A stretch of 37,935 bases of DNA, taken from the IMG/VR virus record IMGVR_UViG_2909298281_000006, positions 1 to 37,935 of that record, one strand, 5' to 3'. Below the pieces are notes generated by a model. It saw only the letters and a list, made by a program, of their open reading frames with translations, ran no database searches and was not told where the DNA came from. The number at the start of each line of letters is the position of its first letter. Within the stretch, counting starts at the first letter, position 1. The position numbers and the translations under genes were made by a program. Positions 4,224-37,935 of the stretch are shown piece after piece. The stretch comes from a virus. Lineage: Duplodnaviria; Heunggongvirae; Uroviricota; Caudoviricetes.

Positions 4224-4333
4224 TCTCATCAGACAGCTCCTTCCTGGTATTGCTGGGCATTTTCATTGCCATGCTGTACCCGGCAGGCGTTGTTCGCCTT
4301 TTCAGTAAGTACATCAAGGAAATCAAACAATGA
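4220..4333 (+). CDS. Tiny hydrophobic protein (37 aa)
   Basis: ATG 4220 overlaps the upstream stop; MISSDSSFLVLLGIFIAMLYPAGVVRLF; stop overlaps the SPFH gene start (ATGA). Confidence 0.35.
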   Translation: MISSDSSFLVLLGIFIAMLYPAGVVRLFSKYIKEIKQ

Positions 4334-5160
4334 AGAAATTCAAACTCTTTCAGATTCTCCCGCTTTTTGCCGCCATCCTGCTGGTTGGCTGCGATCGCGT
4401 TGAGCCAGGTAATGTGGGCATTAAAGTCAACAAACTGGGCGACGATAAAGGCGTCGGTGAAGTGGTTGGCGTTGGCCGCTACTGGACAGGCTGGAATACC
4501 GAGGTTTACATCTTCCCGACCTTCAAACAAATGAAGACCTACGATGAGCCGTTCAGCTTTCAGATGAGTGACGGCACAACCATCGGCTATCACATCGGTG
4601 TGGCCTACAAGGTTGATCCATCCAAAGTTACCACAGTGTTTCAGACCTACCGCAAAGGCGTGGATGACATTACCGACACTGACCTGCGCCAGAAGATCGC
4701 CGATGCACTCAACCGACTGGCCAGCAAAATGACCACCGATAAGTTTATCGACGGTGGCAAGTCTGAACTGCTGGATTCAGCACTTAAAGATATTCAGGAA
4801 GAGATGACCCCCATCGGTATTCAGGTCATGAGCCTCTCCTATGTCGGTAAACCGGAATATCCGCCAACCGTTATCGACAGCATTAATGCCAAAGTCACGG
4901 CAAACCAGAAAACCCTGCAACGCGAGCAGGAAGTCAAGCAACGCGAAGCAGAAGCCAACATGTTGCGCGCAGAAGCTGCCGGACAGGCTGATGCCATTCG
5001 CACAAAAGCCCAGGCTGAAGCCGACGCCATTCGTTTACGCGGTGAAGCTCTGCGCCAGAATCCCGGCGTTATGGAGCTGGAAGCGATTAACAAATGGAAC
5101 GGCACGCTGCCGCAATACATGACCAGCAATACCGCTGTTCCGTTCGTTCCCGTGAAGTAA
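4330..5160 (+). CDS. SPFH/band-7 (HflC/stomatin-like) lipoprotein
   Basis: 276 aa; signal peptide with lipobox LLVGC; SPFH-like core (GNVGIKVNKLG...YIFPTF...VAYKVDP) and Ala/Glu-rich C-terminal coiled-coil tail (REAEANMLRAEAAGQADAIRTKAQAEADAIRLRGEA). Confidence 0.75.
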   Translation: MKKFKLFQILPLFAAILLVGCDRVEPGNVGIKVNKLGDDKGVGEVVGVGRYWTGWNTEVYIFPTFKQMKTYDEPFSFQMSDGTTIGYHIGVAYKVDPSKVTTVFQTYRKGVDDITDTDLRQKIADALNRLASKMTTDKFIDGGKSELLDSALKDIQEEMTPIGIQVMSLSYVGKPEYPPTVIDSINAKVTANQKTLQREQEVKQREAEANMLRAEAAGQADAIRTKAQAEADAIRLRGEALRQNPGVMELEAINKWNGTLPQYMTSNTAVPFVPVK

Positions 5161-5210: not shown

Positions 5211-5327
5211 AGTATGCCGTTCTCACAAAAAAACCGCTTGCCATGCCGCAATCAGTCAGGTTACATTTCCGCTGCACCTCACAAAACGGGTGCCGGGTTT
5301 CGCAGCCTGCTGACTACACAAGCGCAC

Positions 5328-5348
5328 AACCGCGCCAGCGGTTTTTTT
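5328..5348 (+). terminator. Putative rho-independent terminator
   Basis: AACCGC-GCCA-GCGGTT hairpin immediately followed by TTTTT. Confidence 0.5.
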
Positions 5349-5527
5349 GTGCGTACTGTATTGCCACGTTTTTTTCGCATCAGAATTATGGCGGGGCGTA
5401 CGGGGCCGACTTCGGTCGGGCCGGGTTCTTGTGTAGCCGGTACTGCGAACCTCGTACGTCTCGCCACCCACAGTTTCGCAGCTCTGGATGGTGAGTTTTC
5501 ACAACTTACTACACAAGGGGCCACACC

Positions 5528-5758
5528 ATGGCAAACCGCAAACCACACCGCGCTATCGCGGAGCGTCGTCACATCCAGACTGAAATCAACCGCAGGCTTT
5601 CCCGCGCATCACGCGTCGCGCAAATCATGCACATCAATATGTTGCATGAGCGCAGCCACGCACTATCAAACATTTATTCCGCCTCTGTTTTCAGCTATCT
5701 GGCGGATGATCTGCACGAGCTTCAACAGCTCATCCAGCAGCAAAACAAACTCCATTAA
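5528..5758 (+). CDS. Hypothetical protein (76 aa)
   Basis: ORF with AAGGGG about 9 nt upstream; no recognisable motif. Confidence 0.4.
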   Translation: MANRKPHRAIAERRHIQTEINRRLSRASRVAQIMHINMLHERSHALSNIYSASVFSYLADDLHELQQLIQQQNKLH

Positions 5759-5830
5759 TTCCTGTTCCGGGCCTTTCCTGCACCTTGCGGCGGGAGGCCT
5801 TCGCACATCTGTAACAAGAGGATTGCCGCA

Positions 5831-6196
5831 ATGATTCTCGCCAACGACTTTCTTGAATACCTGCTCAACACAGAGCGTGATCTTGCCGCTCGCGTGCGTG
5901 ATCGTTATGACATGTACCTGAAATCCCTGCCTGTACCACAGCTCGCTGACGGAAAGATTGTTATTGATGGTCGCTACATGATTGACAGCCACGAGGGAAA
6001 TTACAGGCTTTACCGCATTGAAGGTGGCACCCCGTCCGTTATTGGCATTTACCAGCGCCCATCCTCTGCAATCGTCGATGTGATTGCCGACAGCATCCGC
6101 ATCACACATCGCCATGCCGACACAGAAGACACCGTGCTGGAAATTCAGCGGCTGGCTACAGTCTGCCGCGACACCCTGAATGGCATGACGAAGTAA
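5831..6196 (+). CDS. Hypothetical protein (121 aa) immediately upstream of A
   Basis: AGAGGA SD; sits in the operon position just before replication gene A. Confidence 0.55.
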   Translation: MILANDFLEYLLNTERDLAARVRDRYDMYLKSLPVPQLADGKIVIDGRYMIDSHEGNYRLYRIEGGTPSVIGIYQRPSSAIVDVIADSIRITHRHADTEDTVLEIQRLATVCRDTLNGMTK

Positions 6197-6202
6197 ATCA
6201 CT

Positions 6203-8350
6203 ATGACGGCAGAGTACATCAGGGACTGGCAACAACCGCGCCACGCAGTGGGGCGTGAAGGAACGGGGATCCCCGCTCCTGAATCCGCGCTTTCCTCCTG
6301 GCTGGATGCCTACCGGGCAGAGAACGAGCGCCGCCAGGAAATGGCTGATGCGGCGTTCTCCGCCACGCCGCTGGGCAACCTGATTAATAAAAGCCTGGAC
6401 GCACAGGAAAAACAGGACAAAACCATCACACTGGCAGGAGACGCCAGAAAGCAGGCACGCGGCGCGGTGGATGAAGCCATGGCCTCGCTGCGCCTGCTGC
6501 CGTCCTATCTGCGCGATCCGCTTATTCGCCACCTCTCCTTCCTGCGCAAAAAACAGGAATCTGACCGCCAGAAAGGTAAAAAGAACCAGCAGGCTGAACG
6601 CTACGCGCGCGGGACCCTGCGCAAAATATTCGAACGTCTGGACCGCACCGACCACCGCTGGCTGACACCGGGTTATCGCGCCCTTGCCGGACGCGAACGC
6701 CTGGATGATTTGCTTTACCTCCCGCAGCTCAACAAGCACCAGATACAGACGCTGGCCACCATGACGGCGGCGATGTTCAGCAGCACCTTCGAAAAACTCT
6801 GCGATGGCTTTGGCGCAACCGATGGCGAGCTGACCATGGATGTAACCCTGAAGGCGTATCAGATGCTGGCCCGCATGGCGTTACACCTGCACGCCATGCC
6901 TCCACATTATGACGCACTGACAACAGACAAAGACCGGAGGAACGAACCGGACACGGAGCTGCTGCCGGGCGCAATCCTTCGCCTGACCTGTGCGGAATGG
7001 TGGAAACGCAAACTGTGGCTGTTACGTTGCGAGTGGAGAGAAGAACAACTCCGCGCCGCCTGTCTGGTTTCCAGAAAAACATCGCCCTATCTGAGCCAGG
7101 ACGCGTTAAGCGAGTTTCGCGCACAGCGCGAGAAGACACGCGATTTCCTGAAAAGTTTCATGCTGGAAAACGAAGACGGGTTCACGATTGATCTCGAGAC
7201 AGTGTATTACGCGGGAGTAAGTAACCCGGTTCACCGTAAGGCAGAAATGATGGCCACCATGAAGGGACTGGAACTTCTGGCCGAAGCCCGTGGCGACAGA
7301 GCGGTGTTTCTGACTGTCACCTGCCCGTCAAAATACCACGCCACAACAGAGAACGGTCATCCGAATCCCAAATGGAACGGGGCCACCATGCGCGACTCCA
7401 GCGATTACCTGGTTAACACGTTTTTTGCGGCTGTCCGCAAAAAACTGAACCGCGACGGTCTGCGCTGGTATGGCATCCGCACGGTGGAGCCTCACCATGA
7501 CGGCACCGTGCACTGGCATATGATGGTCTTTGCTCATCCGGAAGAAATCGACACCATTGTGTCCCACACCCGCGATATTGCCATTCAGGAAGACCGCCAC
7601 GAGCTGGGCGATGACATAACTCCGCGCTTTAAGGCGGAGTACGTCGACGGCTCAAAAGGCACACCAACCAGCTACATCGCCACCTACATCGGAAAGAACC
7701 TGGACAGCCACGCCGTGGATGGCATCGACCCGAAAACGGGCAAGCCACGCGTTGACCACGAAACCGGAAAATCAATGGCCGAGAGCGTGGAGCGCGCCAT
7801 CGGCTGGGCGCGCCTTCACCGGGTCCGCCAGTTCCAGTTCTTTGGCATCCCCTCCCGTCAGGTGTGGCGTGAACTGCGCCGCCTTGCCAGCCAGATGGCA
7901 CGCAACCCGGAAGGCCCGCAACGACTGAAGGACGACGCAATGGATGCGGTACTCGCTGCCGCTGATGCCGGGTGTTTTGCCTCCTACATTGAAAAACAGG
8001 GTGGCGTACTTGTTCCACGCAAAGACTACCTGATTCGCACCGCCTACGACCTCGCCGATGAGCTGAACGATTACGGCGAACAGAGCGTACAGATTTACGG
8101 GATCTGGTCACCACTCATCGGGGAATCCTCCCGTGTGTGCACGCATCCGGATAACTGGAAGCTGGTAAGACGTAAACCGGAAGCGGAAGACAGCGCCCGC
8201 GAAAATGGTTTTGACCTTCAGGGCGGCCCTGCCGCCCTTGGACTCGTGGCAATAACTGTCCCCGTGTACAGGAAACGGACAACAACGGGACAGAACAGCC
8301 GGAGGAACGGCCAGCACCGTGGCCGCAGCTTCCTGAAGGCGTTGACGTGA
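6203..8350 (+). CDS. A: Replication initiator A (rolling-circle initiator/endonuclease)
   Basis: 715 aa, matching the size and position of P2 gpA; contains a Tyr-containing YIATYIGKNLD motif consistent with rolling-circle initiator active sites. Confidence 0.85.
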   Translation: MTAEYIRDWQQPRHAVGREGTGIPAPESALSSWLDAYRAENERRQEMADAAFSATPLGNLINKSLDAQEKQDKTITLAGDARKQARGAVDEAMASLRLLPSYLRDPLIRHLSFLRKKQESDRQKGKKNQQAERYARGTLRKIFERLDRTDHRWLTPGYRALAGRERLDDLLYLPQLNKHQIQTLATMTAAMFSSTFEKLCDGFGATDGELTMDVTLKAYQMLARMALHLHAMPPHYDALTTDKDRRNEPDTELLPGAILRLTCAEWWKRKLWLLRCEWREEQLRAACLVSRKTSPYLSQDALSEFRAQREKTRDFLKSFMLENEDGFTIDLETVYYAGVSNPVHRKAEMMATMKGLELLAEARGDRAVFLTVTCPSKYHATTENGHPNPKWNGATMRDSSDYLVNTFFAAVRKKLNRDGLRWYGIRTVEPHHDGTVHWHMMVFAHPEEIDTIVSHTRDIAIQEDRHELGDDITPRFKAEYVDGSKGTPTSYIATYIGKNLDSHAVDGIDPKTGKPRVDHETGKSMAESVERAIGWARLHRVRQFQFFGIPSRQVWRELRRLASQMARNPEGPQRLKDDAMDAVLAAADAGCFASYIEKQGGVLVPRKDYLIRTAYDLADELNDYGEQSVQIYGIWSPLIGESSRVCTHPDNWKLVRRKPEAEDSARENGFDLQGGPAALGLVAITVPVYRKRTTTGQNSRRNGQHRGRSFLKALT

Positions 8351-8949
8351 ATGAATGGATGCGCTCACTGAAACGGCACGAACGCCGGGCACTGATGCGT
8401 TCGCTGCGTGACAAACAGGCAAAAAACAGCAGTGATGAAATGCAGAACTGGACACAGAGCCGCAAACAGCCACAGCCTTTGCCTGATAACCACGAGTTAC
8501 TCGCTAAAGAATGGCGGGAGTCTGCTGAATCTCTCGGCCTGCATATCGGTGAACAGCAGATGCAGCACCTGTTACGGGGCGGCAGTCTGTACGTTGGCGG
8601 CAGCATCATTACACCGCAGGGATTTGAAATTGTACGCAAACCGGATACCCGCCCGGACAGCCGAATCACGCAGCTCTGGCAACGCCTGAGTCGTAATCAC
8701 GGCGTAAGCAGCACGGAGATCCGCCATAACCCGGTCGCCAGCTATCTGGAACAACTAGAGGCATCAGACCCTGAAGCCGCCGCACGCCTGGCATCCACAC
8801 TTCAGCAAGACCAGAACACCATGAAAACACCAGTTACCGTACTTTCTGACATGCTGCGCGCCATCCGCGACGCAGAGCACGCACAGAGAATCAATGAAAC
8901 CACTAAACATGCTCGCAAAAAAATCAGTTTATTGCATCGAACACGATAG
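8347..8949 (+). CDS. Hypothetical protein (200 aa), translationally coupled to A
   Basis: Start overlaps the A stop (ATGA); position of the small post-A ORF in P2. Confidence 0.55.
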   Translation: MNEWMRSLKRHERRALMRSLRDKQAKNSSDEMQNWTQSRKQPQPLPDNHELLAKEWRESAESLGLHIGEQQMQHLLRGGSLYVGGSIITPQGFEIVRKPDTRPDSRITQLWQRLSRNHGVSSTEIRHNPVASYLEQLEASDPEAAARLASTLQQDQNTMKTPVTVLSDMLRAIRDAEHAQRINETTKHARKKISLLHRTR

Positions 8950-8961
8950 AAATATAGAGCT

Positions 8962-8989
8962 AAGGCCGCCCTAGGAATAAGGAGGCCTT
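8962..8989. terminator. Hairpin between convergent A operon and cargo operon
   Basis: AAGGCC...GGCCTT inverted repeat at the convergence point. Confidence 0.35.
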
Positions 8990-8994
8990 GAAAA

Positions 8995-9804
8995 TCAACC
9001 TATCTTCTTATGAAGTAAAATTAATTTCTGTATTAATTTGGAATGAAACATAGATATATCAGAAATTCTTATTTCATTAGGCGAGTCTATATGATTGGAA
9101 ACTTCTTCCTCCAAGGAGTCACAAATACTTTCTAGATTTTCAATATCTGCATTTAATTCTGGAAAACTATTAAACAAATATAATGAATCCCGTAACTCTC
9201 CTAGTTTTGGTAAAAGAGTATTACTGAATACACTAAGAAACTCCTCTTCTGATAATGCCATGGAGTTTTTAAAACTTTGCACAACATCGAATGCCAACCC
9301 ATTAATTTTAGGCATAATTACTTCTCTTACCCAATATCCTTCATTAATAGCTTCTTTACGTTCTTTTCTATGTTGAACATAAGGAATAACAAAGGATGAA
9401 ACTAAGGCAAATAAAGAGATGCCAATAGAAATCCACTCTGGACCATTTTCCGGAACCTTTACAATATTATATATATCATGGGAATTTGGAACATCTTTGA
9501 AATAATTAGCAAATAAATCTTTTTTGTTATCCCTTGCCAGAGATAACTTATGAAAGGTGTCGTTTGCCTTTTCACAAAACATCAAGCCATCATTCGGGTT
9601 TCCGGATAACAAAAACGGTGATGATATACCACTAAGTCCTGAATCGGAAATATAAAAAGGCGTGTTTGGATAAAGTGACTCATTACATTCAATGTTTTCT
9701 TTATTGGAAAAATCTGTCACAGAGCAAGCTGCGGGGAATATAAAAAAAATGACAGACAGCGCTGTCATTTTGATTTGAAAAATATTTTTAAAAGAAGGGA
9801 ACAT
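8995..9804 (-). CDS. Cargo gene 3: bitopic membrane protein (N-terminal signal/anchor plus one central TM), candidate effector
   Basis: 269 aa; hydrophobic N-terminus MTALSVIFFIFPAACS, central TM WISIGISLFALVSSFVIPYV, acidic C-terminal domain; AGGAGAGG upstream; start overlaps the upstream gene by 17 nt; AT-rich. Confidence 0.7.
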   Translation of the reverse strand: MFPSFKNIFQIKMTALSVIFFIFPAACSVTDFSNKENIECNESLYPNTPFYISDSGLSGISSPFLLSGNPNDGLMFCEKANDTFHKLSLARDNKKDLFANYFKDVPNSHDIYNIVKVPENGPEWISIGISLFALVSSFVIPYVQHRKERKEAINEGYWVREVIMPKINGLAFDVVQSFKNSMALSEEEFLSVFSNTLLPKLGELRDSLYLFNSFPELNADIENLESICDSLEEEVSNHIDSPNEIRISDISMFHSKLIQKLILLHKKIG

Positions 9805-10132
9805 TTTTATGTAAGCCTCTCCTTACAGCTCTATCTAATTCAGAAAGCATACCTTCTTTATATTCACGACCATCAAGTACAGTGCGACTATAAAATTCGC
9901 TAGGCGAAGAAAATTTCGGCAAAACCGTTTCAAGCATACCTAGAAAGTATGAGCTTGATACAACAATTCCCTTGGGGATCAATAGATATAATCTATCATT
10001 ACTGGTTGTGCAAAATTTCCCTATATTAAAGTAATCATAGGCCTGGCGCCCATTAGAACGTCCAGCAAAAAGTTTCTTGTTACTATCTTTTACTAACTTA
10101 TTGAAATCTATGGTGATGTCAGCCATTTTCAT
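9788..10132 (-). CDS. Cargo gene 2: small STAS-like / anti-sigma-factor-antagonist-like protein (tentative)
   Basis: 114 aa; ITIDFNKLVKDS and GIVVSSSYFLGML resemble the STAS/SpoIIAA DSSG region (from memory); 10-nt gap to the upstream GHKL gene stop. Confidence 0.6.
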   Translation of the reverse strand: MKMADITIDFNKLVKDSNKKLFAGRSNGRQAYDYFNIGKFCTTSNDRLYLLIPKGIVVSSSYFLGMLETVLPKFSSPSEFYSRTVLDGREYKEGMLSELDRAVRRGLHKNVPFF

Positions 10133-10142
10133 GTACCTGTCC

Positions 10143-11522
10143 TCAAGTTCGCTGGGTGGCGTTTTCTGGTAGAGGAAAACGAATATTGATCATAACTCCA
10201 GGAAATCGAGCATCCTTCATACGCTTAAGATAGTTGCGATCCGGTTCAGATTCAAGCCCTACATCATTAAAAGGGTAAGTAAAAATGTCACTTTCCTCGT
10301 CATTAACCAACCTTTGCTTTAATTTATATGATCCATCAAAGTTAATATGAGTACTACCAGATATTAAAGTCATTTTTATCCCACCTTTAATATCTCTTCC
10401 CATTTTTTTAAGATTATCATGCATATCTTGAAATAACTTCAATAATTCAATTGTTCCGGTGCCAGAACTGTCAGTTTCTTTCTCGTTTTTACAACTCACC
10501 CGCCCTTGCAAGGCCGCTACTGTTGTTAATCCTTCCTTAAACATACCCTTTTTCTTAATATGCTTATTTATGTATGGATTAACTTGTTGACTTAATGAAA
10601 AATGATCCTCAGGTAAATTATCAAAAGTTTCGCTGATAGTTTTCCCAAAATTGAAAACAGCCAACTCACATATGGGGTTTCGTACGTTATTATTAACAAA
10701 ACCTCTCAAATACCAGCGTGGGCGTTGCTCTAACCCACAATGCCGCTCCGCATTATCAAGGAGTTCCCCCATGCAGGAAGTTAAATGCTTTTCTGCCTCA
10801 TGTACAAGTTTTAAATTATGATCATTTAAGCATTCGTTTATGTATGCGGTAAATTTTTCAGCAGTGACATTTTTTCTGTCATGGGCAAAGGCAGAAGCAT
10901 TCTCCTTTCCGATACTATCAGCAGAGAAGATTCGTTTCTTCGGATTCGCTTTTTTCGATGCTTCAGTAGAGTCCAGAACTTTACCTGGTGCAGCATTACT
11001 AATCTCTTTTACAAGCCCGACATCCCTGATAATTTCAAGATACTGTTCATCTTTAGGGTAGATACCATTAATCTGAATCATCGTATCTTTGAAATTTATA
11101 TTACTTTGCCTTGCTGCTGTAAGAGCAACACCTAATAGACACTCAAGACCAAGACAGTGTTTTTTGTTTTTCTTGTAATCAAAAATATATGATTTCCATT
11201 TACCTCTTGCAATTAATTTTGTGGCTGCACTAATAAATAGCAGAGATTTCTCTGGATTGTCATATAAGTCAAAATATTTAGGTATTAATATCTTCTCTGC
11301 GTCACGACGAAGAATTGATGAGTCATACTCTTTTATAATCGATATATTTTCAATGAACGTAGCGACTTGGTTTTGGACAGGAGTTGTTTCATCGGAAAAA
11401 CGAAGACTACCATTTTTCTCTTGCGCAGGCTTTTTTTTCTTAGCTCTCTCAACGCTACGAAGAAATCGCAACCATCCACGTAAAAAGGTTCTTTTAGAAT
11501 CTTCTTTATTGATTTTTTTCAT
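10143..11522 (-). CDS. Cargo gene 1: GHKL-superfamily ATPase / putative protein kinase
   Basis: Track ORF runs to TTG 11618; ATG at 11522 (MKKINKED) preferred. N-box-like ELLDNAERH and G2-like SSGTGTIELL; the N-terminal ~230 aa have no motif I recognise. Confidence 0.65.
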   Translation of the reverse strand: MKKINKEDSKRTFLRGWLRFLRSVERAKKKKPAQEKNGSLRFSDETTPVQNQVATFIENISIIKEYDSSILRRDAEKILIPKYFDLYDNPEKSLLFISAATKLIARGKWKSYIFDYKKNKKHCLGLECLLGVALTAARQSNINFKDTMIQINGIYPKDEQYLEIIRDVGLVKEISNAAPGKVLDSTEASKKANPKKRIFSADSIGKENASAFAHDRKNVTAEKFTAYINECLNDHNLKLVHEAEKHLTSCMGELLDNAERHCGLEQRPRWYLRGFVNNNVRNPICELAVFNFGKTISETFDNLPEDHFSLSQQVNPYINKHIKKKGMFKEGLTTVAALQGRVSCKNEKETDSSGTGTIELLKLFQDMHDNLKKMGRDIKGGIKMTLISGSTHINFDGSYKLKQRLVNDEESDIFTYPFNDVGLESEPDRNYLKRMKDARFPGVMINIRFPLPENATQRT

Positions 11523-11601
11523 TTCCAAATGTTCCTGCAAAGTTAACGTAGCCCACAAGGCGCTAAGTATACTTTCTGCTATATTTTTTTCACTATACAA
11601 A

Positions 11602-11628
11602 TGCACAATAGTGCACAAATTTGCACAA
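11602..11628. repeat. Three direct TGCACAA repeats with exact 10-bp phasing upstream of the cargo operon (fourth copy at 11694-11700)
   Basis: Read directly: TGCACAA at 11602-11608, 11612-11618, 11622-11628. Confidence 0.6.
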
Positions 11629-11639
11629 TTTTTTTGAAC

Positions 11640-11720
11640 GACTTTTTGCCCTTCTGGCCCGCGTGGCGGCTGGATCCGTCAAGGATCCGTGCGTGCACAA
11701 AAAAACGCGCTTTTTCTGCG
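11640..11720. other. Candidate cos region
   Basis: P2-family cos lies between the old/tin locus and Q; GCGTGGCGG (11661-11669) resembles the start of the 186/P2 cohesive end as I recall it; adjacent direct repeat GGATCCGT x2. Confidence 0.3.
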
Positions 11721-12001
11721 CGCAGGTGACGGGGGAACAGCCCGCGTTTCAGGGGGTAAATAGCATTCCCTGAACGATGTCGCAGAGATAGAACAGAATG
11801 GCTGTATTTCTCACGCTGAGCGTGAAAAAGACGTGAGGGCTTTTGATTTGATGGGGTGAAAGGTAAGGCCGTCAAAATCGCACTGAGACGGCGAGAACAT
11901 GCAGTCAACGCGGTGGGATTGCGTAAGAGTCTGACTGTCGATGATGGCAATCAGCAGGAAAGCGTCGTGAAATTATCTGACTGATACAGGAGCTGGAGAG
12001 T

Positions 12002-12052: not shown

Positions 12053-13099
12053 TCAGGATGTGGGCTGGGTGTCTAACAGTGCGTAAGGGTTAAAGCGGAT
12101 CACCTCTTCGCCAAGCCAGTCATTGATGTGCTTCATGGCCTCCATGACGGGCATCAGCTCGTTAATTGCGTAAACCCGCGCGGCTTTCTCCACATCACCA
12201 AACGCACTTTTTTCGCCCGGCATCGCCCCCATCAGTTGCGGCGGAACGCGGTGCGCAGCCAGCACATCATCACGGGATGCCGCCTTAACATTCATGAACT
12301 CATCCTTTGCGGTGATCTGCTGGAACGGCAAAATTTGCACCCCTTCTTTGCCCCCGTTGGGCGCATGAATGAGCACGTTTTTAAATGCACCACCACCACG
12401 CGCACCCTGTAACGTTTCTTTCAGGGAGTCCATGCTTTCGCGGTTTACCTGCGCTGCACCGATGTAGATGATGCACCCGGCGTGGGATCCGTTGTCGTAG
12501 TACAGTTTTCTGAACATGTCCGCCGAATGAGAAAGGCTGGCCGAGAGTAATGCGCCAAGATATTCCGGCATGCCGTAGATTTCCTGGTTAATATCCGGAT
12601 TCATCAGGTGGCACACTTTGCCAGGGCGAAGCTGGAACGCGTCCTTGCCATCCTGCACATACCACCATGATTCAAGATCGCTTCCGCGTCGCATGTATTT
12701 CGCCAGGGCGTGCCGTAATTTAAGCGGTTCGCCGAGCATATTGCTCCGAAGCTCAAGGAATGCGTTACCGAACACAAACCAGTCCAGCGCCAGCGCCGAG
12801 AAATCCTGCCGGGAAAGCAGCGGGTGCGGGATGTAGCACCCGAGCAATACATTACGCTTAAAGTAAAGCGCAGACTGATGCCAGGACGTTTGCCGGGCGG
12901 CTCTTGCCAGACCGTACCAGTCCACCGGGGTTTCATACCACCGCCCGTTATCAGCACAGTACATATTGTCCAGCAGGTCATGCCCGGTCAGGCGATAAGG
13001 ACCATCAAATGTGAATGCACTGAGCGATGATTCTTTCCTGAGCGCATCAGCGAGATCAATGCGTGAACTCATGCGCACTTTTTTATTTTTTCTGCTCAT
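12053..13099 (-). CDS. Q: Portal protein
   Basis: 348 aa; size, position and orientation match P2 gpQ; start overlaps the P stop. Confidence 0.9.
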   Translation of the reverse strand: MSRKNKKVRMSSRIDLADALRKESSLSAFTFDGPYRLTGHDLLDNMYCADNGRWYETPVDWYGLARAARQTSWHQSALYFKRNVLLGCYIPHPLLSRQDFSALALDWFVFGNAFLELRSNMLGEPLKLRHALAKYMRRGSDLESWWYVQDGKDAFQLRPGKVCHLMNPDINQEIYGMPEYLGALLSASLSHSADMFRKLYYDNGSHAGCIIYIGAAQVNRESMDSLKETLQGARGGGAFKNVLIHAPNGGKEGVQILPFQQITAKDEFMNVKAASRDDVLAAHRVPPQLMGAMPGEKSAFGDVEKAARVYAINELMPVMEAMKHINDWLGEEVIRFNPYALLDTQPTS

Positions 13100-26410: not shown

Positions 26411-26503
26411 GGCTTTCATTTCAAACCATTGTAGTCCAGTTTTTTGTATAGTACCCTGCTCATTTCGAATGACATGAGTGATTTGGAATTTCAGGGTGCC
26501 ATT

Positions 26504-27682
26504 ATGAATGTTATTTCATCATTAAAACAGCTTAACAGACAGCGAAATATTAAAACAAAAAAGATAAAGACGAAGGCCAGACTGGCATTTCTAAAAATGC
26601 GATACAGAAGGAAAACATCATTACAGCCGGATAGTTATAAAACAGTGTGCATTTTCATGCACATGCAGGCCATTGGTGACGGCATCGTTACCTCAGGGTT
26701 TATTAAACAACTTCAAGAATCCGGCATGGTGGTATATGTGATAGCACCTCCAAGAGTATCATTCCTCTTTACTGATATTGTTGGCGTGGATGCCTTTATT
26801 TCTTACGAGAAAAATAAATTTAACGAACTAAAAGCAAAGATAAAAAAACTGAATGTAGATCTTGTTGTTGACTTCTCAAATTTTGATAACACAGCGATAA
26901 CCAGATTGCAAACACTACATTTACTTAAACCTAAACACTCTATCTGTTTTAATCATCCTGCCGTAACTATTTTTGATACAAATATAATCGATAATCGTTC
27001 CATTCACTCATCTGAAAGAATGAAAAAAGTTTTATCTTTACTAAAGATAAAAAATAATGATTACGCTGCAGCGCTTAATTTTGACAACAAAATATATGAA
27101 CCAGCAAATATTGTTGCAAATGAATTCAGGAAGAAAAACAAAAAATTAGTTATATTTAACCCTTATGGCTCTCAGAATAGCAGAACCTTGTCTGATGAAC
27201 AGATAAACAAAGTACTAGCTTACCTTAACAACCTTAAGGGATATCACACAATAGTTTTTAACATGGGAAAACAGATTAATCACAATGGATTGGATAATGT
27301 GTCTCTATCTCCATTTTCTGATGCAGGATGTTCATTTGCATTGGTTCGCCATGCTGATTTTGTTATAACTGTAGATACTGCTATTGTACATTTAGCCAGT
27401 GCATTAAACATTAGACAATACTGTATATATAATAACAGAATGCATGAAGGAAAATTCGAAAATAATATAGTGTGGGGGCCAAACAGCAAATTAGCGACTC
27501 AACTCACCACATCCGAACATCTAAGGTCTGAAGGGGGCGACGATATGCATAAATTCGACATAATGCTTTTAATTAATGCTATCAAACAAGATTTGACAAA
27601 CGATATACCGAATTACCACTCGGATTTAGGTTGTAAAAATAGCTCCAGAAACCCAGAATTAGAAAGTAGCAAATCTTTATAA
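26504..27682 (+). CDS. Glycosyltransferase family 9-like (heptosyltransferase-like) cargo gene
   Basis: Track ORF starts at TTG 26444; ATG 26504 preferred. AIGDGIVTSGFIKQL and VDTAIVHLASALN resemble GT9 N- and C-terminal motifs (WaaC/WaaF-like D-S-G-x-x-HLAAAL); AT-rich. Confidence 0.65.
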   Translation: MNVISSLKQLNRQRNIKTKKIKTKARLAFLKMRYRRKTSLQPDSYKTVCIFMHMQAIGDGIVTSGFIKQLQESGMVVYVIAPPRVSFLFTDIVGVDAFISYEKNKFNELKAKIKKLNVDLVVDFSNFDNTAITRLQTLHLLKPKHSICFNHPAVTIFDTNIIDNRSIHSSERMKKVLSLLKIKNNDYAAALNFDNKIYEPANIVANEFRKKNKKLVIFNPYGSQNSRTLSDEQINKVLAYLNNLKGYHTIVFNMGKQINHNGLDNVSLSPFSDAGCSFALVRHADFVITVDTAIVHLASALNIRQYCIYNNRMHEGKFENNIVWGPNSKLATQLTTSEHLRSEGGDDMHKFDIMLLINAIKQDLTNDIPNYHSDLGCKNSSRNPELESSKSL

Positions 27683-35263: not shown

Positions 35264-35441
35264 AGGAAACCGCGACGGGGAGCAATCCCCCGGTCAATCA
35301 GTTGCCAGAGTAAGGTCGATAAGGCATCCTGTCTCATTCTATACCAGCTAATCAATTGACACATATCAATAAAAAGCCTGATAAAATCAAAATGTTTTGT
35401 TACAAATGTCAGCTAGTAGAGAGCCAAAGGAGGCAGATTAT

Positions 35442-35774
35442 ATGGCATTAATCAAATGTCCTGAATGCCAGAAAGAGGTGATCGATTCAGTATTGTCTTG
35501 CCCTGCTTGTGGCAAACAACTGAAAAAACTTAAACGTTCATTTTTTGGAGAACTCATTAAGTATTTTTTCATATTATTTAATATTTTTATAATCTACACG
35601 ATTTGTGTTGGGCTAAGAGAGGTTGGTGAAATAATAAACAACGCCACATCCGATGCCGAAAAAGCCGGTACAGTTATTGGTACGGGCTTAGGTTTAATTG
35701 CTATTGGAGGCTTATGGGTTATTGGCAATATCATTATCGGAAATTTAGTATTTCTTACTAAACCAAAGGGATAA
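35442..35774 (+). CDS. Zinc-ribbon membrane protein (110 aa)
   Basis: ATG 35442 after AAAGGAGG; CPEC...CPACG zinc ribbon followed by two hydrophobic helices; AT-rich. Confidence 0.55.
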   Translation: MALIKCPECQKEVIDSVLSCPACGKQLKKLKRSFFGELIKYFFILFNIFIIYTICVGLREVGEIINNATSDAEKAGTVIGTGLGLIAIGGLWVIGNIIIGNLVFLTKPKG

Positions 35775-35778
35775 CAAA

Positions 35779-36672
35779 ATGAAAAATATGATTATTTCTA
35801 TAGGTGCATCATTTATATCAATTAGTGTGCTACCTGCTCACGCAGCAACTGAGCATAATAACTTTAAGTCATCACTCCAGTGCCGAGCAATAGAAAATAA
35901 TAAAGAAAGACTTTCTTGTTATGATAAGTCAATACAACCGACTCGAACGACAGTTGCTGAAAAATTCGAAAGCAGAGATCAATGCCCTGATGAGAAAGAT
36001 GATGACAGACGTTTATCTTGTTATGACCGTTTTTTTTCTCCAACATTTACTCCGCCTGTAAGCTCAAAATCTAAATCGAAACAGCTAGTAACAACAGAGG
36101 CTCAGCAACCAAATCTTTCTGAGATATCTAAATGCCGAGCAGAAACCGATAAAGAAACTAGAGTAAACTGCTACGATAAACTATTTCCACAGGAAAAAGT
36201 TGCGCAATCTAAATCAAAATTAGAGAAAGCCACAGACACAGGAAAATGGCACACATCCATTACTACATCGCCAATTGATGATTCGAAAAATGTAATTTTA
36301 TCGTTAGAAAGTGATGATTATATAAGAACTCCATTTGGAGAAGCGGTTACCCCTACTCTGTTTATAGCTTGCCGAGAAAAGAAAACCGAAGTATTTCTTA
36401 ATTGGGATGTATATTTAGGCCTTGAACAAACCAGCATGCTGTATCGCCTTGATAAACAGAAAGCAGTTGAGCGAAACTGGCTAGTATCTACAGATACAAA
36501 GGCTGTTTTTTATAAAGGCAATGACATTAACTTCATCAGAAAACTAGCCAACTCAAACAAAATGTATGCAAAAATAACCCCTTATAATGAAAGCCCTGTA
36601 AGTGCAACTTTCAATTTAAACGGCCTGTCAACCACGCTAAAACCGCTTCAAGAAGCCTGTAACTGGAAATAG
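35779..36672 (+). CDS. Secreted protein with three Cys-containing repeats
   Basis: Signal peptide MKNMIISIGASFISISVLPAHA; three repeats C-x7/8-R-[LV]-x-C-Y-D-[KR] (RLSCYDK, RLSCYDR, RVNCYDK); AT-rich. Confidence 0.6.
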   Translation: MKNMIISIGASFISISVLPAHAATEHNNFKSSLQCRAIENNKERLSCYDKSIQPTRTTVAEKFESRDQCPDEKDDDRRLSCYDRFFSPTFTPPVSSKSKSKQLVTTEAQQPNLSEISKCRAETDKETRVNCYDKLFPQEKVAQSKSKLEKATDTGKWHTSITTSPIDDSKNVILSLESDDYIRTPFGEAVTPTLFIACREKKTEVFLNWDVYLGLEQTSMLYRLDKQKAVERNWLVSTDTKAVFYKGNDINFIRKLANSNKMYAKITPYNESPVSATFNLNGLSTTLKPLQEACNWK

Positions 36673-36939: not shown

Positions 36940-37935
36940 ATGATACAACCTATTTCCGGCCCTCCTCCTGGGCAACCACCAGGTCAGGGAGATAACCTGC
37001 CGTCTGGCGCGGGCAATCAGCCTTTATCCAGTCAGCAACGTACTTCGCTGGAAAGCTTAATGACGAAAGTGACCTCACTGACGCAACAGCAAAGAGCAGA
37101 ACTGTGGGCGGGTATCAGGCACGATATTGGTCTGTCGGGAGATTCACCGCTGCTTTCGCGTCACTTCCCTGCCGCTGAGCATAACCTGGCGCAACGTCTG
37201 CTGGCCGCGCAAAAAAGCCATTCTGCCCGCCAGCTTTTAGCGCAATTAGGGGAGTATTTACGTCTGGGGAATAATCGTCAGGCGGTCACGGATTATATCC
37301 GTCATAACTTTGGTCAGACGCCGCTGAATCAGCTCTCACCGGAGCAATTAAAAACCATTCTCACCCTGTTGCAGGAAGGGAAGATGGTTATTCCGCAACC
37401 ACAGCAGCGCGAGGCGACCGACCGTCCTTTATTACCGGCGGAGCACAATGCGCTAAAACAGCTGGTGACCAAACTTGCGGCGGCAACGGGGGAACCCAGC
37501 AAACAGATCTGGCAATCGATGCTGGAACTTTCCGGGGTGAAAGATGGCGAGTTAATTCCAGCGAAACTGTTTAACCATCTGGTGACCTGGCTACAGGCGC
37601 GTCAGACGCTAAGCCAGCAAAATACGCCGACGCTGGAATCACTACAGATGACGCTAAAACAACCTTTAGATGCCAGTGAACTGGCGGCGTTATCGGCATA
37701 TATCCAGCAAAAATATGGTCTTTCTGCGCAATCATCGCTTTCTTCTGCCCAGGCCGAGGATATTCTTAATCAGCTTTATCAACGGCGGGTTAAAGGGATT
37801 GATCCGCGTGTTATGCAACCGCTGCTTAATCCTTTTCCACCGATGATGGACACGTTGCAAAATATGGCAACGCGTCCCGCGCTGTGGATACTGTTAGTCG
37901 CGATTATCCTGATGCTGGTCTGGCTGGTTCGTTAA
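36940..37935 (+). CDS. Hypothetical tail-anchored membrane protein (Pro/Gln-rich N-terminus, C-terminal TM), probably host flank
   Basis: 331 aa; MIQPISGPPPGQPPGQ...; C-terminal TM ALWILLVAIILMLVWLV; AAGGA SD; window ends exactly at its stop. Confidence 0.6.
   Translation: MIQPISGPPPGQPPGQGDNLPSGAGNQPLSSQQRTSLESLMTKVTSLTQQQRAELWAGIRHDIGLSGDSPLLSRHFPAAEHNLAQRLLAAQKSHSARQLLAQLGEYLRLGNNRQAVTDYIRHNFGQTPLNQLSPEQLKTILTLLQEGKMVIPQPQQREATDRPLLPAEHNALKQLVTKLAAATGEPSKQIWQSMLELSGVKDGELIPAKLFNHLVTWLQARQTLSQQNTPTLESLQMTLKQPLDASELAALSAYIQQKYGLSAQSSLSSAQAEDILNQLYQRRVKGIDPRVMQPLLNPFPPMMDTLQNMATRPALWILLVAIILMLVWLVR

What the first reader, a model, noticed from the sequence alone, without database searches (positions are those of the whole stretch)
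8995..11640. Three-gene AT-rich cargo operon in the P2 old/tin hotspot: candidate uncharacterised anti-phage system
Between the replication module (A plus post-A ORF) and the cos/Q region, where P2 carries old and tin, lies a tightly packed minus-strand operon with much lower GC than the flanking phage genes. Gene 1 (10143-11522) has a GHKL-type N-box ELLDNAERH and a glycine-rich SSGTGTIELL segment downstream, the pattern of RsbW/SpoIIAB-type serine kinases and histidine-kinase ATPase domains, plus about 230 N-terminal residues I cannot place. Gene 2 (9788-10132, 114 aa) has ITIDF and VVSSSYFLGML, reminiscent of STAS anti-sigma-factor antagonists that are substrates of such kinases. Gene 3 (8995-9804) is a membrane protein with a hydrophobic N-terminus and one central TM helix, a plausible effector. 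Gaps are 10 nt and a 17-nt overlap. I do not recognise this as Old, Tin, PARIS, Gabija, Septu, Kiwa, CBASS, a retron or a restriction system. It loosely parallels kinase/partner-switching and Detocs-like sense-relay-effector logic, but that is inference.
Basis: partly seen in the sequence, partly recalled or inferred. Interest (0 to 1): 0.85.

Follow-up and report, generated by a model that had tools for sequence, protein, structure and literature searches.

The report
Kinase–STAS–membrane protein cassette in P2 hotspot
A P2-like prophage carries, in its known anti-phage cargo slot, a three-gene cassette whose kinase is a distant relative of the recently described CapK/VapK immune kinases, but here the kinase and its small partner come with a membrane protein instead of a nuclease toxin; it is very probably an untested phage-defence system.

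Summary
Three tightly packed minus-strand genes (10143-11522, 9788-10132, 8995-9804) form a GC-poor island (0.31-0.39 against 0.53-0.60) between P2 gene A and portal gene Q.

- **Gene 3:** a secreted, lipobox-type N-terminus, one TM helix and a conserved cytoplasmic helical domain.

The ordered trio is conserved in about 55 loci across Proteobacteria, a Bacteroidetes MAG and viral contigs, with no effector swapping. PADLOC, Pfam and NCBIfam give no hit.

Prior art exists. Rousset 2022 catalogued it untested as P2 system #19, "HATPase_c | DUF4325". DefensePredictor flags gene 2.

Verdict: a new variant of a known kind, a VapKSC-like switch with a membrane third component. The defence role and the mechanism are inferred, not shown.

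The parts
10143..11522 (-). Gene 1 (K): a 459-aa STAS-GHKL kinase-like protein, a distant CapK/VapK homologue.
11433..11522 (-). Gene 1 residues 1-30: a Lys/Arg-rich N-terminal helix whose role is unknown.
   Evidence: Helix 6-29 in the AF2 model. The basic character is kept across the family consensus.
10908..11309 (-). Gene 1 residues ~72-205: a STAS-like α/β domain with a degenerate acceptor site. The D/C-L-G/A-x-E motif sits where STAS proteins carry D-S-S-G.
10167..10880 (-). Gene 1 residues ~215-452: a GHKL (Bergerat) ATP-binding kinase domain of SpoIIAB/RsbW type.
10740..10766 (-). N-box ELLDNAERH (E253, N257, H261).
   Evidence: Translation; invariance. The spacing E-x3-N-A-x2-H matches VapK (EIYANSFEH) and CapK (ELIGNVRDH).
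10638..10658 (-). Atypical G1 box VFNFGKT. Asn291 replaces the canonical Asp of D-x-G-x-G.
   Evidence: Translation. Position 291 is N in 92, S in 11, D in 2 and G in 1 of 106 members. VapK and CapK keep Asp.
10452..10469 (-). G2 box / ATP-lid hinge SSGTGT (G354, G356).
   Evidence: Translation; invariant.
9788..10132 (-). Gene 2 (S): a 114-aa (or 112-aa from ATG 10126) small α/β protein, the putative STAS-like (DUF4325-like) kinase substrate.
   Evidence: ORF. A GAGG Shine-Dalgarno lies 8 nt before ATG 10132. AF2 pLDDT 89.8. It is adjacent to gene 1 in every locus examined. The family hits phrog_37359 at up to E 8.4e-7. Rousset 2022 annotates it DUF4325.
9950..9958 (-). Ser57-Ser58-Ser59 (112-aa numbering) at the strand-to-helix junction. 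Ser59 is the only family-wide invariant Ser and the predicted phospho-acceptor.
   Evidence: Translation. Alignment of 24 diverse homologues with CapS and VapS. hhalign places S58 on VapS S48. CapS S54 also directly precedes an aromatic residue (PMC13373217).
8995..9804 (-). Gene 3 (M): a 269-aa membrane protein, the putative effector or anchor.
   Evidence: ORF. Homologues follow gene 2 in all Gamma/Beta loci and viral contigs. In Alphaproteobacteria and Bacteroidetes the third gene has the same architecture.
9724..9804 (-). Gene 3 residues 1-27: a secretion signal with the lipobox-like sequence F-P-A-A-C27.
   Evidence: Translation. C27 is invariant in alignment A2. 12 of 30 distinct homologues have a lipobox-like site; most others have an SPase-I-like site. 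Not checked with SignalP or LipoP.
9442..9723 (-). Gene 3 residues 28-121: a fast-evolving periplasmic segment, absent in Alphaproteobacterial, Bacteroidetes and some Erwinia versions.
   Evidence: Mean pairwise identity is 0.30, against 0.63-0.70 for the rest of the protein. Absence in other lineages.
9379..9441 (-). Gene 3 TM helix (residues 122-142), followed by a basic stretch HRKERK, which implies a C-in topology.
   Evidence: Translation; hydropathy.
8998..9378 (-). Gene 3 residues 143-269: a conserved cytoplasmic helical domain with the juxtamembrane motif YWVREVIMPKI.
   Evidence: W158, V162 and P165 are invariant. The motif was found in 29 of 30 distinct homologues. No PDB or Pfam relative.
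11523..11600 (-). Probable promoter and 5' UTR of the operon. It holds only weak σ70-like hexamers, including TATAGT and TATACT.
   Evidence: Sequence. The scan found one site at 11593-11566, but promoter-like sites are no more frequent than chance (8 against 9.8 expected). Homology to cassette-free P2-like phages ends at about 11600.
8955..8974 (-). Weak terminator-like hairpin after gene 3, convergent with the end of gene A.
   Evidence: 6-bp stem; sequence.
11705..11723 (-). Context: a GC hairpin plus T-run that ends the Q/P (portal/terminase) transcript upstream of the cassette, in the phage backbone.
   Evidence: Conserved in the upstream alignment.

Best explanation
The cassette is a self-contained three-gene anti-phage module carried as cargo in the cos-proximal A-Q hotspot of a P2-like (P88/Xuanwuvirus-type) prophage. 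It works as a serine-phosphorylation switch of the CapKS/VapKSC kind.

Gene 1 (K) is a STAS-GHKL serine kinase. Gene 2 (S) is its small STAS-like substrate. Gene 3 (M) is a membrane-anchored protein whose conserved domain faces the cytoplasm.

Proposed mechanism, by analogy with VapKSC:
1. In uninfected cells, unphosphorylated S binds the cytoplasmic domain of M and keeps it inactive.
2. A phage-derived cue activates K. In CapK/VapK the cue is single-stranded DNA bound between the STAS and GHKL domains.
3. K phosphorylates S on Ser59 (112-aa numbering).
4. Phospho-S lets go of M.
5. M self-associates in the inner membrane and collapses membrane integrity or energisation. That arrests or kills the cell before the phage completes (abortive infection). 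The cassette has no phosphatase gene, so the switch is one-way.

Shown here: the folds and homology of K; conservation of its catalytic residues; a conserved Ser in S at the acceptor position; the topology of M; the invariant K-S-M order; the hotspot location.

Inferred: kinase activity, the S-M interaction, the trigger, the toxicity of M, and defence itself.
For: **K**
- The AF2 model is confident (pLDDT 81.8).
- Gene 1, VapK and CapK all hit PHROG 3364, across the STAS and GHKL parts of the profile: E 2.4e-7, 3.6e-38 and 1.5e-12.
- The family HMM scores CapK above all 2000 shuffles, and VapK above 1989 of 2000.
- hhalign is collinear over both domains.
- E253, N257, G293, G354 and G356 are invariant in 106 of 106 members.

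**S**
- It is always the next gene.
- Its single invariant Ser lies at the β3-α2 junction. That is where CapS S54 and VapS S48 are phosphorylated (PMC13373217).
- An independent HHpred label calls it DUF4325, the STAS-like family.

**M**
- A third gene of the same architecture is present in every locus with enough sequence, apart from one ambiguous MAG locus (L015/L016).
- It co-diverges with K and S (Spearman 0.59-0.61).

**Defence context**
- The locus is the P2 old/tin hotspot, where most tested cargo is defensive (PMC9122126; PMC13586616).
- Diverged orthologues (48-56% identity) sit in the same slot of other P2-like phages.
- Elsewhere the trio lies next to type I R-M and AAA_15 genes, a methylase, SRA-HNH, NERD and HipA, and AbiEi, Old/GajA-like and MADS genes.
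- DefensePredictor gives gene 2 a log-odds of 7.46.
- VapKSC, the closest system, gives about 2-log protection against Bas42.
Against: - I found no experiment on this cassette. It is absent from Rousset's tested set and from Vassallo's selection.
- Gene 2 is not detectably related by sequence to VapS or CapS. 157 and 1160 of 2000 shuffles score as high, and VapS falls in a different PHROG.
- The G1-box Asp that contacts adenine in all canonical GHKL enzymes is Asn or Ser in this family. ATP use and kinase activity are therefore not assured.
- A single-TM protein with a helical cytoplasmic domain has no recognisable toxin fold, and its toxicity is assumed.
- The fast-evolving periplasmic segment would suit a sensor at least as well as an effector.
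- Defence neighbours occur in only a minority of the non-P2 loci.
Confidence: 0.45

Rival explanations
1. Outside-in sensing. M is the sensor rather than the effector. Its fast-evolving periplasmic segment detects phage entry, for example tail-tip or ejection proteins, or envelope damage. It passes this across the membrane by releasing S or K. The output is the kinase itself, acting either on host or phage targets or by SpoIIAB-like sequestration of a transcription factor.
For: The periplasmic segment is the most variable part of the whole cassette: 0.30 identity against 0.63-0.70. M diverges about four times faster than K and S between two E. coli cassettes. That pattern is typical of surfaces in an arms race. 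The structural relatives of K, SpoIIAB and RsbW, are anti-sigma factors as well as kinases.
Against: The periplasmic segment is missing entirely in Alphaproteobacterial, Bacteroidetes and some Erwinia versions, which keep only the TM helix and cytoplasmic domain. It therefore cannot be the core sensor. No further effector gene is conserved next to the trio. In the characterised relatives the kinase is the sensor, for ssDNA.
Confidence: 0.17
2. CapKS-like regulator. [quoted passage not shown]
For: K is homologous to CapK. CapK and CapS regulate adjacent immune operons.
Against: Gene 2 is only 112-114 aa and has no wHTH or other DNA-binding domain. [quoted passage not shown] The downstream partner is always the same kind of membrane protein, whereas CapKS precedes many different operons.
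Confidence: 0.07
3. Not defence. The cassette is a lysogenic-conversion or stress-response partner-switching module, for instance an envelope or general stress switch, or an addiction (toxin-antitoxin-like) module that stabilises the prophage. It would have no specific anti-phage role.
For: Classical STAS/GHKL partner switches control stress responses. The CapK authors note that the line between stress and immune pathways is blurred. Some chromosomal copies sit among ordinary metabolic genes. P2 hotspots also carry non-defence cargo such as partition systems and cdt toxin.
Against: The hotspot position recurs across diverged P2-like phages. The cassette is present on 25 viral contigs. Several loci have defence-island neighbours. 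DefensePredictor scores gene 2 as defensive. No sigma factor or phosphatase partner is conserved nearby.
Confidence: 0.2
4. Superinfection exclusion at the envelope. M is a lipoprotein that blocks receptor use or DNA injection by incoming phages, like T5 Llp or Cor. K and S are accessory.
For: M has a lipobox-like signal and a periplasmic segment. The weak, non-significant best PDB sequence hit of the M profile is the T5 lytic conversion lipoprotein (E 0.68).
Against: That hit is not significant and covers only the signal region. The conserved part of M is cytoplasmic. Many homologues have no periplasmic part at all. Known Sie lipoproteins do not need a kinase.
Confidence: 0.06

Closest known systems
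VapKSC (VapK kinase, VapS STAS antitoxin, VapC PIN toxin); Chambers et al., EMBO J 2026, PMC13373217
   Same: - It is a three-gene operon in the same order: a STAS-GHKL kinase, then a protein of about 115 aa with a conserved Ser at the β3-α2 junction, then a third protein.
- The kinases are homologous. Both hit PHROG 3364 across both domains.
- Neither system has a phosphatase.
- Both are found in defence neighbourhoods.
   Different: - The third gene is a single-pass membrane protein with a cytoplasmic helical domain, not a PIN nuclease.
- K is 459 aa against 302 aa. It has an added basic N-terminal helix and insertions.
- The G1 box is N/S-x-G instead of D-x-G-x-G.
- Gene 2 and VapS are not detectably related by sequence and fall in different PHROGs.
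- The ssDNA trigger has not been tested for this family.
CapK + CapS (regulators of CBASS, Bub, Thoeris and other operons); same paper
   Same: The kinase has STAS-GHKL architecture and is homologous to gene 1: CapK hits PHROG 3364 at E 1.5e-12, and the gene 1 family HMM scores CapK above 2000 of 2000 shuffles. The substrate Ser precedes an aromatic residue (CapS S54-F55; gene 2 S59-Y60).
   Different: CapK has an N-terminal HTH. CapS carries a wHTH and is a DNA-binding repressor, whereas gene 2 has no DNA-binding domain. CapKS sits upstream of many different operons, whereas this K-S pair is always followed by the same kind of membrane protein.
SpoIIAB-SpoIIAA and RsbW-RsbV partner-switching modules (anti-sigma kinase plus STAS antagonist)
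   Different: Here the STAS-like domain is fused to the kinase and is not itself phosphorylatable (a D/C-L-G/A-x-E site). No sigma factor or PP2C phosphatase is associated. There is no Pfam-level sequence match. The cassette is mobile and phage-borne.
P2-hotspot system #19, 'HATPase_c | DUF4325' (Rousset et al. 2022, Table S5B)
   Same: It is this very cassette, with identical protein sequences.
   Different: That entry is only a catalogue line with HHpred labels and '1 TM in protein 3'. There is no test, no name in DefenseFinder or PADLOC, no link to CapK/VapK (which were described four years later) and no recognition of the STAS-like domain inside protein 1.
Defence systems with small membrane effectors (Rst_2TM-1TM-TIR, Rst_RT-nitrilase-1TM, Rst_Hydrolase-3TM, CBASS/Pycsar TM effectors)
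   Same: A sensor or enzyme is paired with a small TM protein presumed to kill by membrane disruption. Several of these occur in P2/P4 hotspots.
   Different: There the effector is thought to be activated by a nucleotide messenger or an unknown signal, not by a phospho-switch. I found no sequence relationship: the gene 3 HMMs against the RT-nitrilase 1TM protein are not significant.

Membership tests
CapK/VapK-type STAS-GHKL kinases | A GHKL (Bergerat) kinase domain of SpoIIAB/RsbW type with an intact N-box Asn. | tested here: met
CapK/VapK-type STAS-GHKL kinases | A STAS domain N-terminal to the kinase domain in the same polypeptide. | tested here: met
CapK/VapK-type STAS-GHKL kinases | Sequence homology to CapK/VapK. 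| tested here: met
   All three share PHROG 3364: gene 1 at 2.4e-7, VapK at 3.6e-38, CapK at 1.5e-12. The family HMM against CapK gives 6.4 bits with 0 of 2000 shuffles as high; against VapK, 11 of 2000. Direct hhalign is only marginal (E 0.036).
CapK/VapK-type STAS-GHKL kinases | A canonical G1 box D-x-G-x-G. | tested here: not met
   The sequence is VFN291FGKT. Across the family the position is N in 92, S in 11 and D in 2 of 106. This is a hallmark deviation of the family.
CapK/VapK-type STAS-GHKL kinases | Activation by single-stranded DNA through an aromatic residue in the STAS-GHKL groove (CapK W68). | not testable with these tools
The equivalent residue could not be assigned reliably.
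VapKSC system | A small STAS-domain partner with a conserved Ser/Thr phospho-acceptor on α2. | tested here: inconclusive
VapKSC system | A VapC-like PIN nuclease as the third gene. | tested here: not met
   The third gene is a signal-peptide/TM protein with no PIN or any other Pfam match. This holds in all loci examined.
CapKS regulator pair | The substrate carries a C-terminal wHTH and represses an adjacent operon. | tested here: not met
   Gene 2 is 112-114 aa, a single α/β domain, with no HTH.
Rst_3HP (the validated P2-hotspot system of three hypothetical proteins) | Protein homology to Hp1, Hp2 and Hp3. | tested here: inconclusive
   None of the three proteins hit any PADLOC v2.0.0 model at E ≤1, apart from a chance-level PDC-S02 hit. 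The N-termini of the three proteins are absent from Rousset's Table S2 of tested systems and appear only in catalogue Table S5. I did not confirm that PADLOC v2.0.0 holds 3HP models, and I did not obtain the 3HP sequences.
Detocs / two-component phosphorelay defence | A HisKA dimerisation/phospho-His domain, an Hpt or receiver domain, and a PNP effector. | tested here: not met
   No HisKA, Hpt or REC match in Pfam or PADLOC. The kinase fold is closest to Ser kinases of SpoIIAB type.
Bacterial lipoprotein (gene 3 N-terminus) | A signal peptide ending in a lipobox [LVI][ASTVI][GAS]C. | tested here: inconclusive
   The sequence is IFPAAC27, with Pro at position -3. The Cys is invariant in the 11-sequence alignment A2. 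A lipobox-like site is present in 12 of 30 distinct homologues. SignalP and LipoP are not available.

The most novel reading that the evidence does not exclude
This is the founding example of a phosphorylation-gated membrane effector in phage defence. A CapK-family kinase senses infection and, by phosphorylating a minimal STAS-like protein, unleashes a single-pass membrane protein. In the enterobacterial branch, the hypervariable periplasmic lipoprotein segment would add a second input from outside the cell, sensing phage entry at the envelope. One switch would then integrate cytoplasmic and periplasmic cues. The Asn/Ser-for-Asp change in the G1 box may also mean the family uses a nucleotide other than ATP, or works as a pseudokinase-like clamp.
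Probability: 0.15. Interest if true: 0.8.

Novelty: new variant of a known kind. Interest (0 to 1): 0.62.

Why it matters
- **Modularity.** That would strengthen the view that this sensor pair is a modular front end of bacterial immunity.
- **Size of the family.** It is sizeable: 1173 representatives at 50% identity, spread across Proteobacteria, Bacteroidetes and phages. Pfam, NCBIfam and PADLOC miss it entirely, so genome surveys currently overlook it.
- **Ease of testing.** It is about 2.7 kb, native to E. coli and sits in a proven defence hotspot. Point mutants follow directly from the analysis: K N257A and E253A, S S59A and S59E, and M with residues 28-121 deleted.
- **Open biochemical question.** The altered G1 box raises the question of which nucleotide these GHKL proteins use.

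Tried and rejected
**Family and structure searches that found nothing**
- PADLOC, Pfam and NCBIfam scans of all three proteins, and of ten distant gene 1 relatives: no meaningful hit.
- Pfam scan of all 30 gene 2 homologues: nothing, and no DUF4325 even at E ≤10.
- Profile searches of PDB sequences with the gene 1, 2 and 3 families: nothing significant.
- Foldseek of gene 2 against the PDB: nothing. That library ends in April 2026 and probably predates 9Z7O and 9Z71.
- Rfam scan of the region: nothing.

- AFDB50 was not available.
- The viral-contig scan with VapK found nothing, and a tblastn of plasmids gave only two distant hits. I could therefore not build a VapK/VapS family profile for a profile-to-profile test.

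**Comparisons that were not significant**
- hhalign of gene 2 against gene 1's STAS-like domain.
- hhalign of the gene 1 and gene 2 families against the single VapK and VapS sequences: in the right register but not significant.
- Gene 3 HMMs against the RT-nitrilase-associated 1TM effector.
- Gamma-type against Alpha-type third genes: only marginal (best E 0.0026). I claim shared architecture, not proven homology.

**Ideas rejected**
- The cassette is Rst_3HP. This was not excluded outright, but the cassette is absent from Rousset's table of tested systems and has its own catalogue entry.
- The TTGTGCA repeats are a cassette operator. They belong to the phage backbone.
- The effector is swappable. 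The trio is invariant in 31 further loci.
- The 'post-A ORF' is a gene. It is the frameshifted tail of A.
- Promoter prediction is no better than chance.

Full report
**1. The observation**

The window is a P2-like (P88/Xuanwuvirus-type) prophage. It runs from the integrase at its left end, through the early genes, to replication gene A (6203-8949; Phage_GPA, E 4.5e-131). After the cassette come portal Q (12053-13099, minus strand), the terminase and the structural genes.

- 10143-11522, 459 aa
- 9788-10132, 114 aa (PGAP starts at 10126, giving 112 aa)
- 8995-9804, 269 aa

There is a 10-nt gap between genes 1 and 2 and a 17-nt overlap between genes 2 and 3. GC falls to 0.31-0.39 over 9001-11500, against 0.53-0.60 on both sides. 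The quoted motifs are at the stated places.

One detail needs correcting. The 'post-A ORF' is the tail of gene A, separated by a 1-nt deletion in a C-run near 8235. A near-identical relative has one 2748-nt CDS.

**2. What the three proteins are**

None of them matches any PADLOC, Pfam or NCBIfam model.

*Gene 1.*
- A word-indexed search found only 59 clusters, all unannotated and without Pfam hits. An exhaustive profile search found 1173 representatives at 50% identity, 561 of them below E 1e-30, and nearly all of the 150 listed are full length at about 440 aa.
- An AF2 model built on 45 homologues is confident (pLDDT 81.8, pTM 0.81).
- Together with the secondary-structure map this gives three parts: a basic helix (about residues 1-30), a STAS-like domain (about 72-205) and a GHKL domain (about 215-452).
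- Across 106 family members, E253, N257, G293, G354 and G356 are invariant and H261 is present in 105. The G1-box Asp is replaced by Asn (92), Ser (11), Asp (2) or Gly (1), which is a hallmark of this family.

*Gene 2.*
- It folds confidently (pLDDT 89.8) into a small α/β domain.
- In an alignment of 24 diverse homologues, the only invariant Ser is Ser59 (112-aa numbering). It lies at the strand-to-helix junction, just before an aromatic residue.

*Gene 3.*
- It has an N-terminal secretion signal ending in a lipobox-like A-A-C27. The Cys is invariant in the 11-sequence alignment, and 12 of 30 distinct homologues have a lipobox-like site.
- After the signal come a periplasmic segment, one TM helix (residues 122-142) followed by basic residues, and a conserved helical cytoplasmic domain with the motif YWVREVIMPKI.
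- It has no relative in Pfam or the PDB.

**3. Link to known biology**

A literature search found Chambers et al., EMBO J 2026 (PMC13373217).
- CapK is an HTH-STAS-GHKL kinase activated by ssDNA. It phosphorylates Ser54 of CapS, a STAS-wHTH repressor, which derepresses adjacent immune operons.
- The related VapKSC operon encodes VapK (STAS-GHKL), VapS (116 aa; a STAS domain plus a short tail; acceptor S48) and a VapC PIN toxin. VapS inhibits VapC until it is phosphorylated. The operon gives about 2-log protection against phage Bas42.

I took the CapK, CapS, VapK and VapS sequences from the paper's supplementary files.

| Test | Result |
|---|---|
| hhalign, gene 1 family vs VapK (single sequence) | E 0.15 |
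| hhalign, broader 106-sequence profile vs VapK | E 0.036, collinear: STAS 75-154 to 12-84, GHKL 211-299 to 114-198 |
| Family HMM vs CapK, 2000 shuffles | 0 shuffles score as high |
| Family HMM vs VapK, 2000 shuffles | 11 shuffles score as high |
| Gene 1 vs PHROG 3364 (304 positions, unknown function) | E 2.4e-7, residues 75-453 |
| VapK vs PHROG 3364 | E 3.6e-38 |
| CapK vs PHROG 3364 | E 1.5e-12 |
| Bacteroidetes family member vs PHROG 3364 | E 4.6e-6 |

The PHROG result is the decisive link. Gene 1 is therefore a true but distant CapK/VapK homologue.

For gene 2 the link is weaker.
- hhalign puts S58 on VapS S48, and CapS reads 'GIVATDS54SF' against 'GIVVSSSYF'.
- The scores are not significant, however: 157 and 1160 of 2000 shuffles score as high.
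- The families also fall in different PHROGs: 37359 for gene 2 and 9989 for VapS.

**4. Conservation of the system**

- In 22 reference-genome loci with enough sequence, gene 2 always directly follows gene 1.
- A gene 3 homologue is recognised in all Gamma- and Betaproteobacterial loci.
- In Alphaproteobacteria and a Bacteroidetes MAG the third gene is, with one ambiguous exception (L015/L016), a TM helix plus a helical cytoplasmic domain of about 130 aa, without the periplasmic part. Its sequence relationship to the Gamma type is only marginal.
- All 25 informative viral contigs and six further genomic loci carry the same ordered trio. There is no effector swapping.
- Across 26 distinct trios the mean pairwise identities are K 40.5%, S 42.5% and M 31.0%. 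Divergences are correlated: K~S 0.79, K~M 0.59, S~M 0.61.
- Within M, the periplasmic segment is the fastest-evolving part (0.30, against 0.63-0.70 for the rest).
- Between two E. coli cassettes, K is 91.5% identical, S 89.5% and M 62.8%.

**5. Context**

- In E. coli, gene 1 occurs in 23 of 5426 complete genomes, always chromosomal and always annotated as hypothetical.
- Orthologues at 56% and 48% identity occupy the same A-Q slot, in the same orientation, in other P2-like prophages of Enterobacteriaceae and Klebsiella.
- Outside P2 the trio lies next to type I R-M and AAA_15 genes in Vibrio. In an Aeromonas prophage it lies next to a methylase, SRA-HNH, NERD and HipA. In another Aeromonas it sits among metabolic genes.
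- Among 149 flanking ORFs from 22 loci there are integrases, transposases, AbiEi, Old/GajA-like ATPases, methyltransferases, MADS components and PD-Lambda-5_B.
- The right edge of the cargo is near 11600, where homology to cassette-free P2-like phages begins. One phage record starts at about window 11647, so the cassette abuts cos, as described for this hotspot.
- A hairpin plus T-run at 11705-11723 ends the Q/P transcript. The cassette's own promoter is not predictable above chance.

**6. Prior art**

- Rousset et al. 2022 list this cassette, with identical protein sequences, as P2-hotspot system #19, 'HATPase_c | DUF4325', with 155 occurrences and '1 TM in protein 3' (Table S5B).
- It is not among the systems they cloned. 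The N-termini of the three proteins occur only in the catalogue file.
- DefensePredictor lists gene 2 (WP_000763711.1) as a 'Predicted novel defense gene' with mean log-odds 7.46.
- It is absent from the held supplements of Vassallo 2022.
- The CapK paper does not mention a membrane variant. No other paper in the library does either.
- The 2026 P2/P4 survey notes that 19% of P2 elements carry only genes of unknown function at the defence locus, and it tested only P4 loci.

**7. Interpretation**

The best-supported reading is a VapKSC-like phospho-switch whose third component is a membrane protein.
- K senses infection, possibly through ssDNA as in CapK.
- K phosphorylates S on Ser59.
- S then releases the cytoplasmic domain of M.
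- M damages or de-energises the membrane.

Shown: the folds, the homology of K, the catalytic and acceptor residues, the topology, the invariant gene order and the hotspot location.

Inferred: kinase activity, the S-M contact, the trigger, the toxicity of M, and defence itself.

The main caveats are the unconfirmed STAS fold of gene 2, the non-canonical G1 box and the lack of any experiment. The chief rival makes M a sensor, as its hypervariable periplasmic segment suggests. That segment is dispensable in many lineages, which argues that it is a lineage-specific addition rather than the core of the system.

**8. Verdict**

The cassette is not categorically new. Its kinase belongs to a family described in 2026, and the cassette itself was catalogued in 2022. 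It is, however, an untested variant, invisible to current databases, with a different output module. It is also cheap to test.

Noticed in passing
window 6203-8949 (indel near 8235): Replication gene A is split into 6203-8350 and 8347-8949 by a 1-nt deletion in a C-run. A near-identical E. coli relative has a single 2748-nt CDS, with 2 differences in all. This is either a homopolymer sequencing error or a replication-defective prophage.
   Followed up: partly
window 26444-27682 (+): A second GC-poor island (0.32-0.34) lies between the tail-fibre genes and the tail sheath block, which is the P2 Z/fun cargo position. It encodes a 412-aa protein with a glycosyltransferase family 9 (heptosyltransferase-like) match (E 3.7e-6) and a strong hit to phrog_36326. 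PADLOC gives no hit. It may be an LPS-modifying lysogenic-conversion gene.
   Followed up: partly
window 35397-36672 (+), and 36940-37935: A GC-poor pair (about 0.35) lies beyond the late genes: a 125-aa zinc-ribbon protein and a 297-aa VasI-like (type VI secretion, PF11319, E 3.4e-24) protein. An ORF with a weak GemA-like match follows. I did not determine whether this is prophage cargo or flanking chromosome.
   Followed up: no
window 11602-11628 (-), with a fourth copy at 11694-11700: Three TTGTGCA repeats at exact 10-bp spacing lie just upstream of the cassette. They are conserved upstream of diverged cassettes and in P2-like phages that lack the cassette. A Xuanwuvirus record starts at about window 11647. 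They are probably a cos-proximal backbone element, such as a terminase or host-factor site, and not a cassette operator. The heptamer itself is not over-represented window-wide (8 found, 9.45 expected).
   Followed up: partly
window 9746-9771 (-): A 10-bp-stem hairpin (AAAATGACAG...CTGTCATTTT) followed by a T-run lies inside gene 3, over codons 12-20 of the signal peptide, which include the internal Met13 codon. It could modulate translation or read-through of gene 3, or it could be a by-product of the AT-rich composition.
   Followed up: no
window 4330-5160 (+): An SPFH/Band 7 domain protein (E 5.7e-31) is encoded among the early genes of the prophage, upstream of an Ash-family protein (5214-5834). 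Neither hits PADLOC.
   Followed up: no
Rousset 2022 Table S5A (seen): Another P2-hotspot arrangement, 'hypothetical + DUF4325 + hypothetical' (WP_032254602 + WP_032254618 + WP_126646822), is listed. It may be a VapKSC-like or a further K-S-X variant in the same hotspot.
   Followed up: no
L005 (contig DEQA01000158.1, 3147 bp): A 3.1-kb contig in a 'Planococcaceae bacterium' MAG carries the cassette at 100% identity to the E. coli version. This is most likely an E. coli contaminant binned into a Firmicutes MAG.
   Followed up: no
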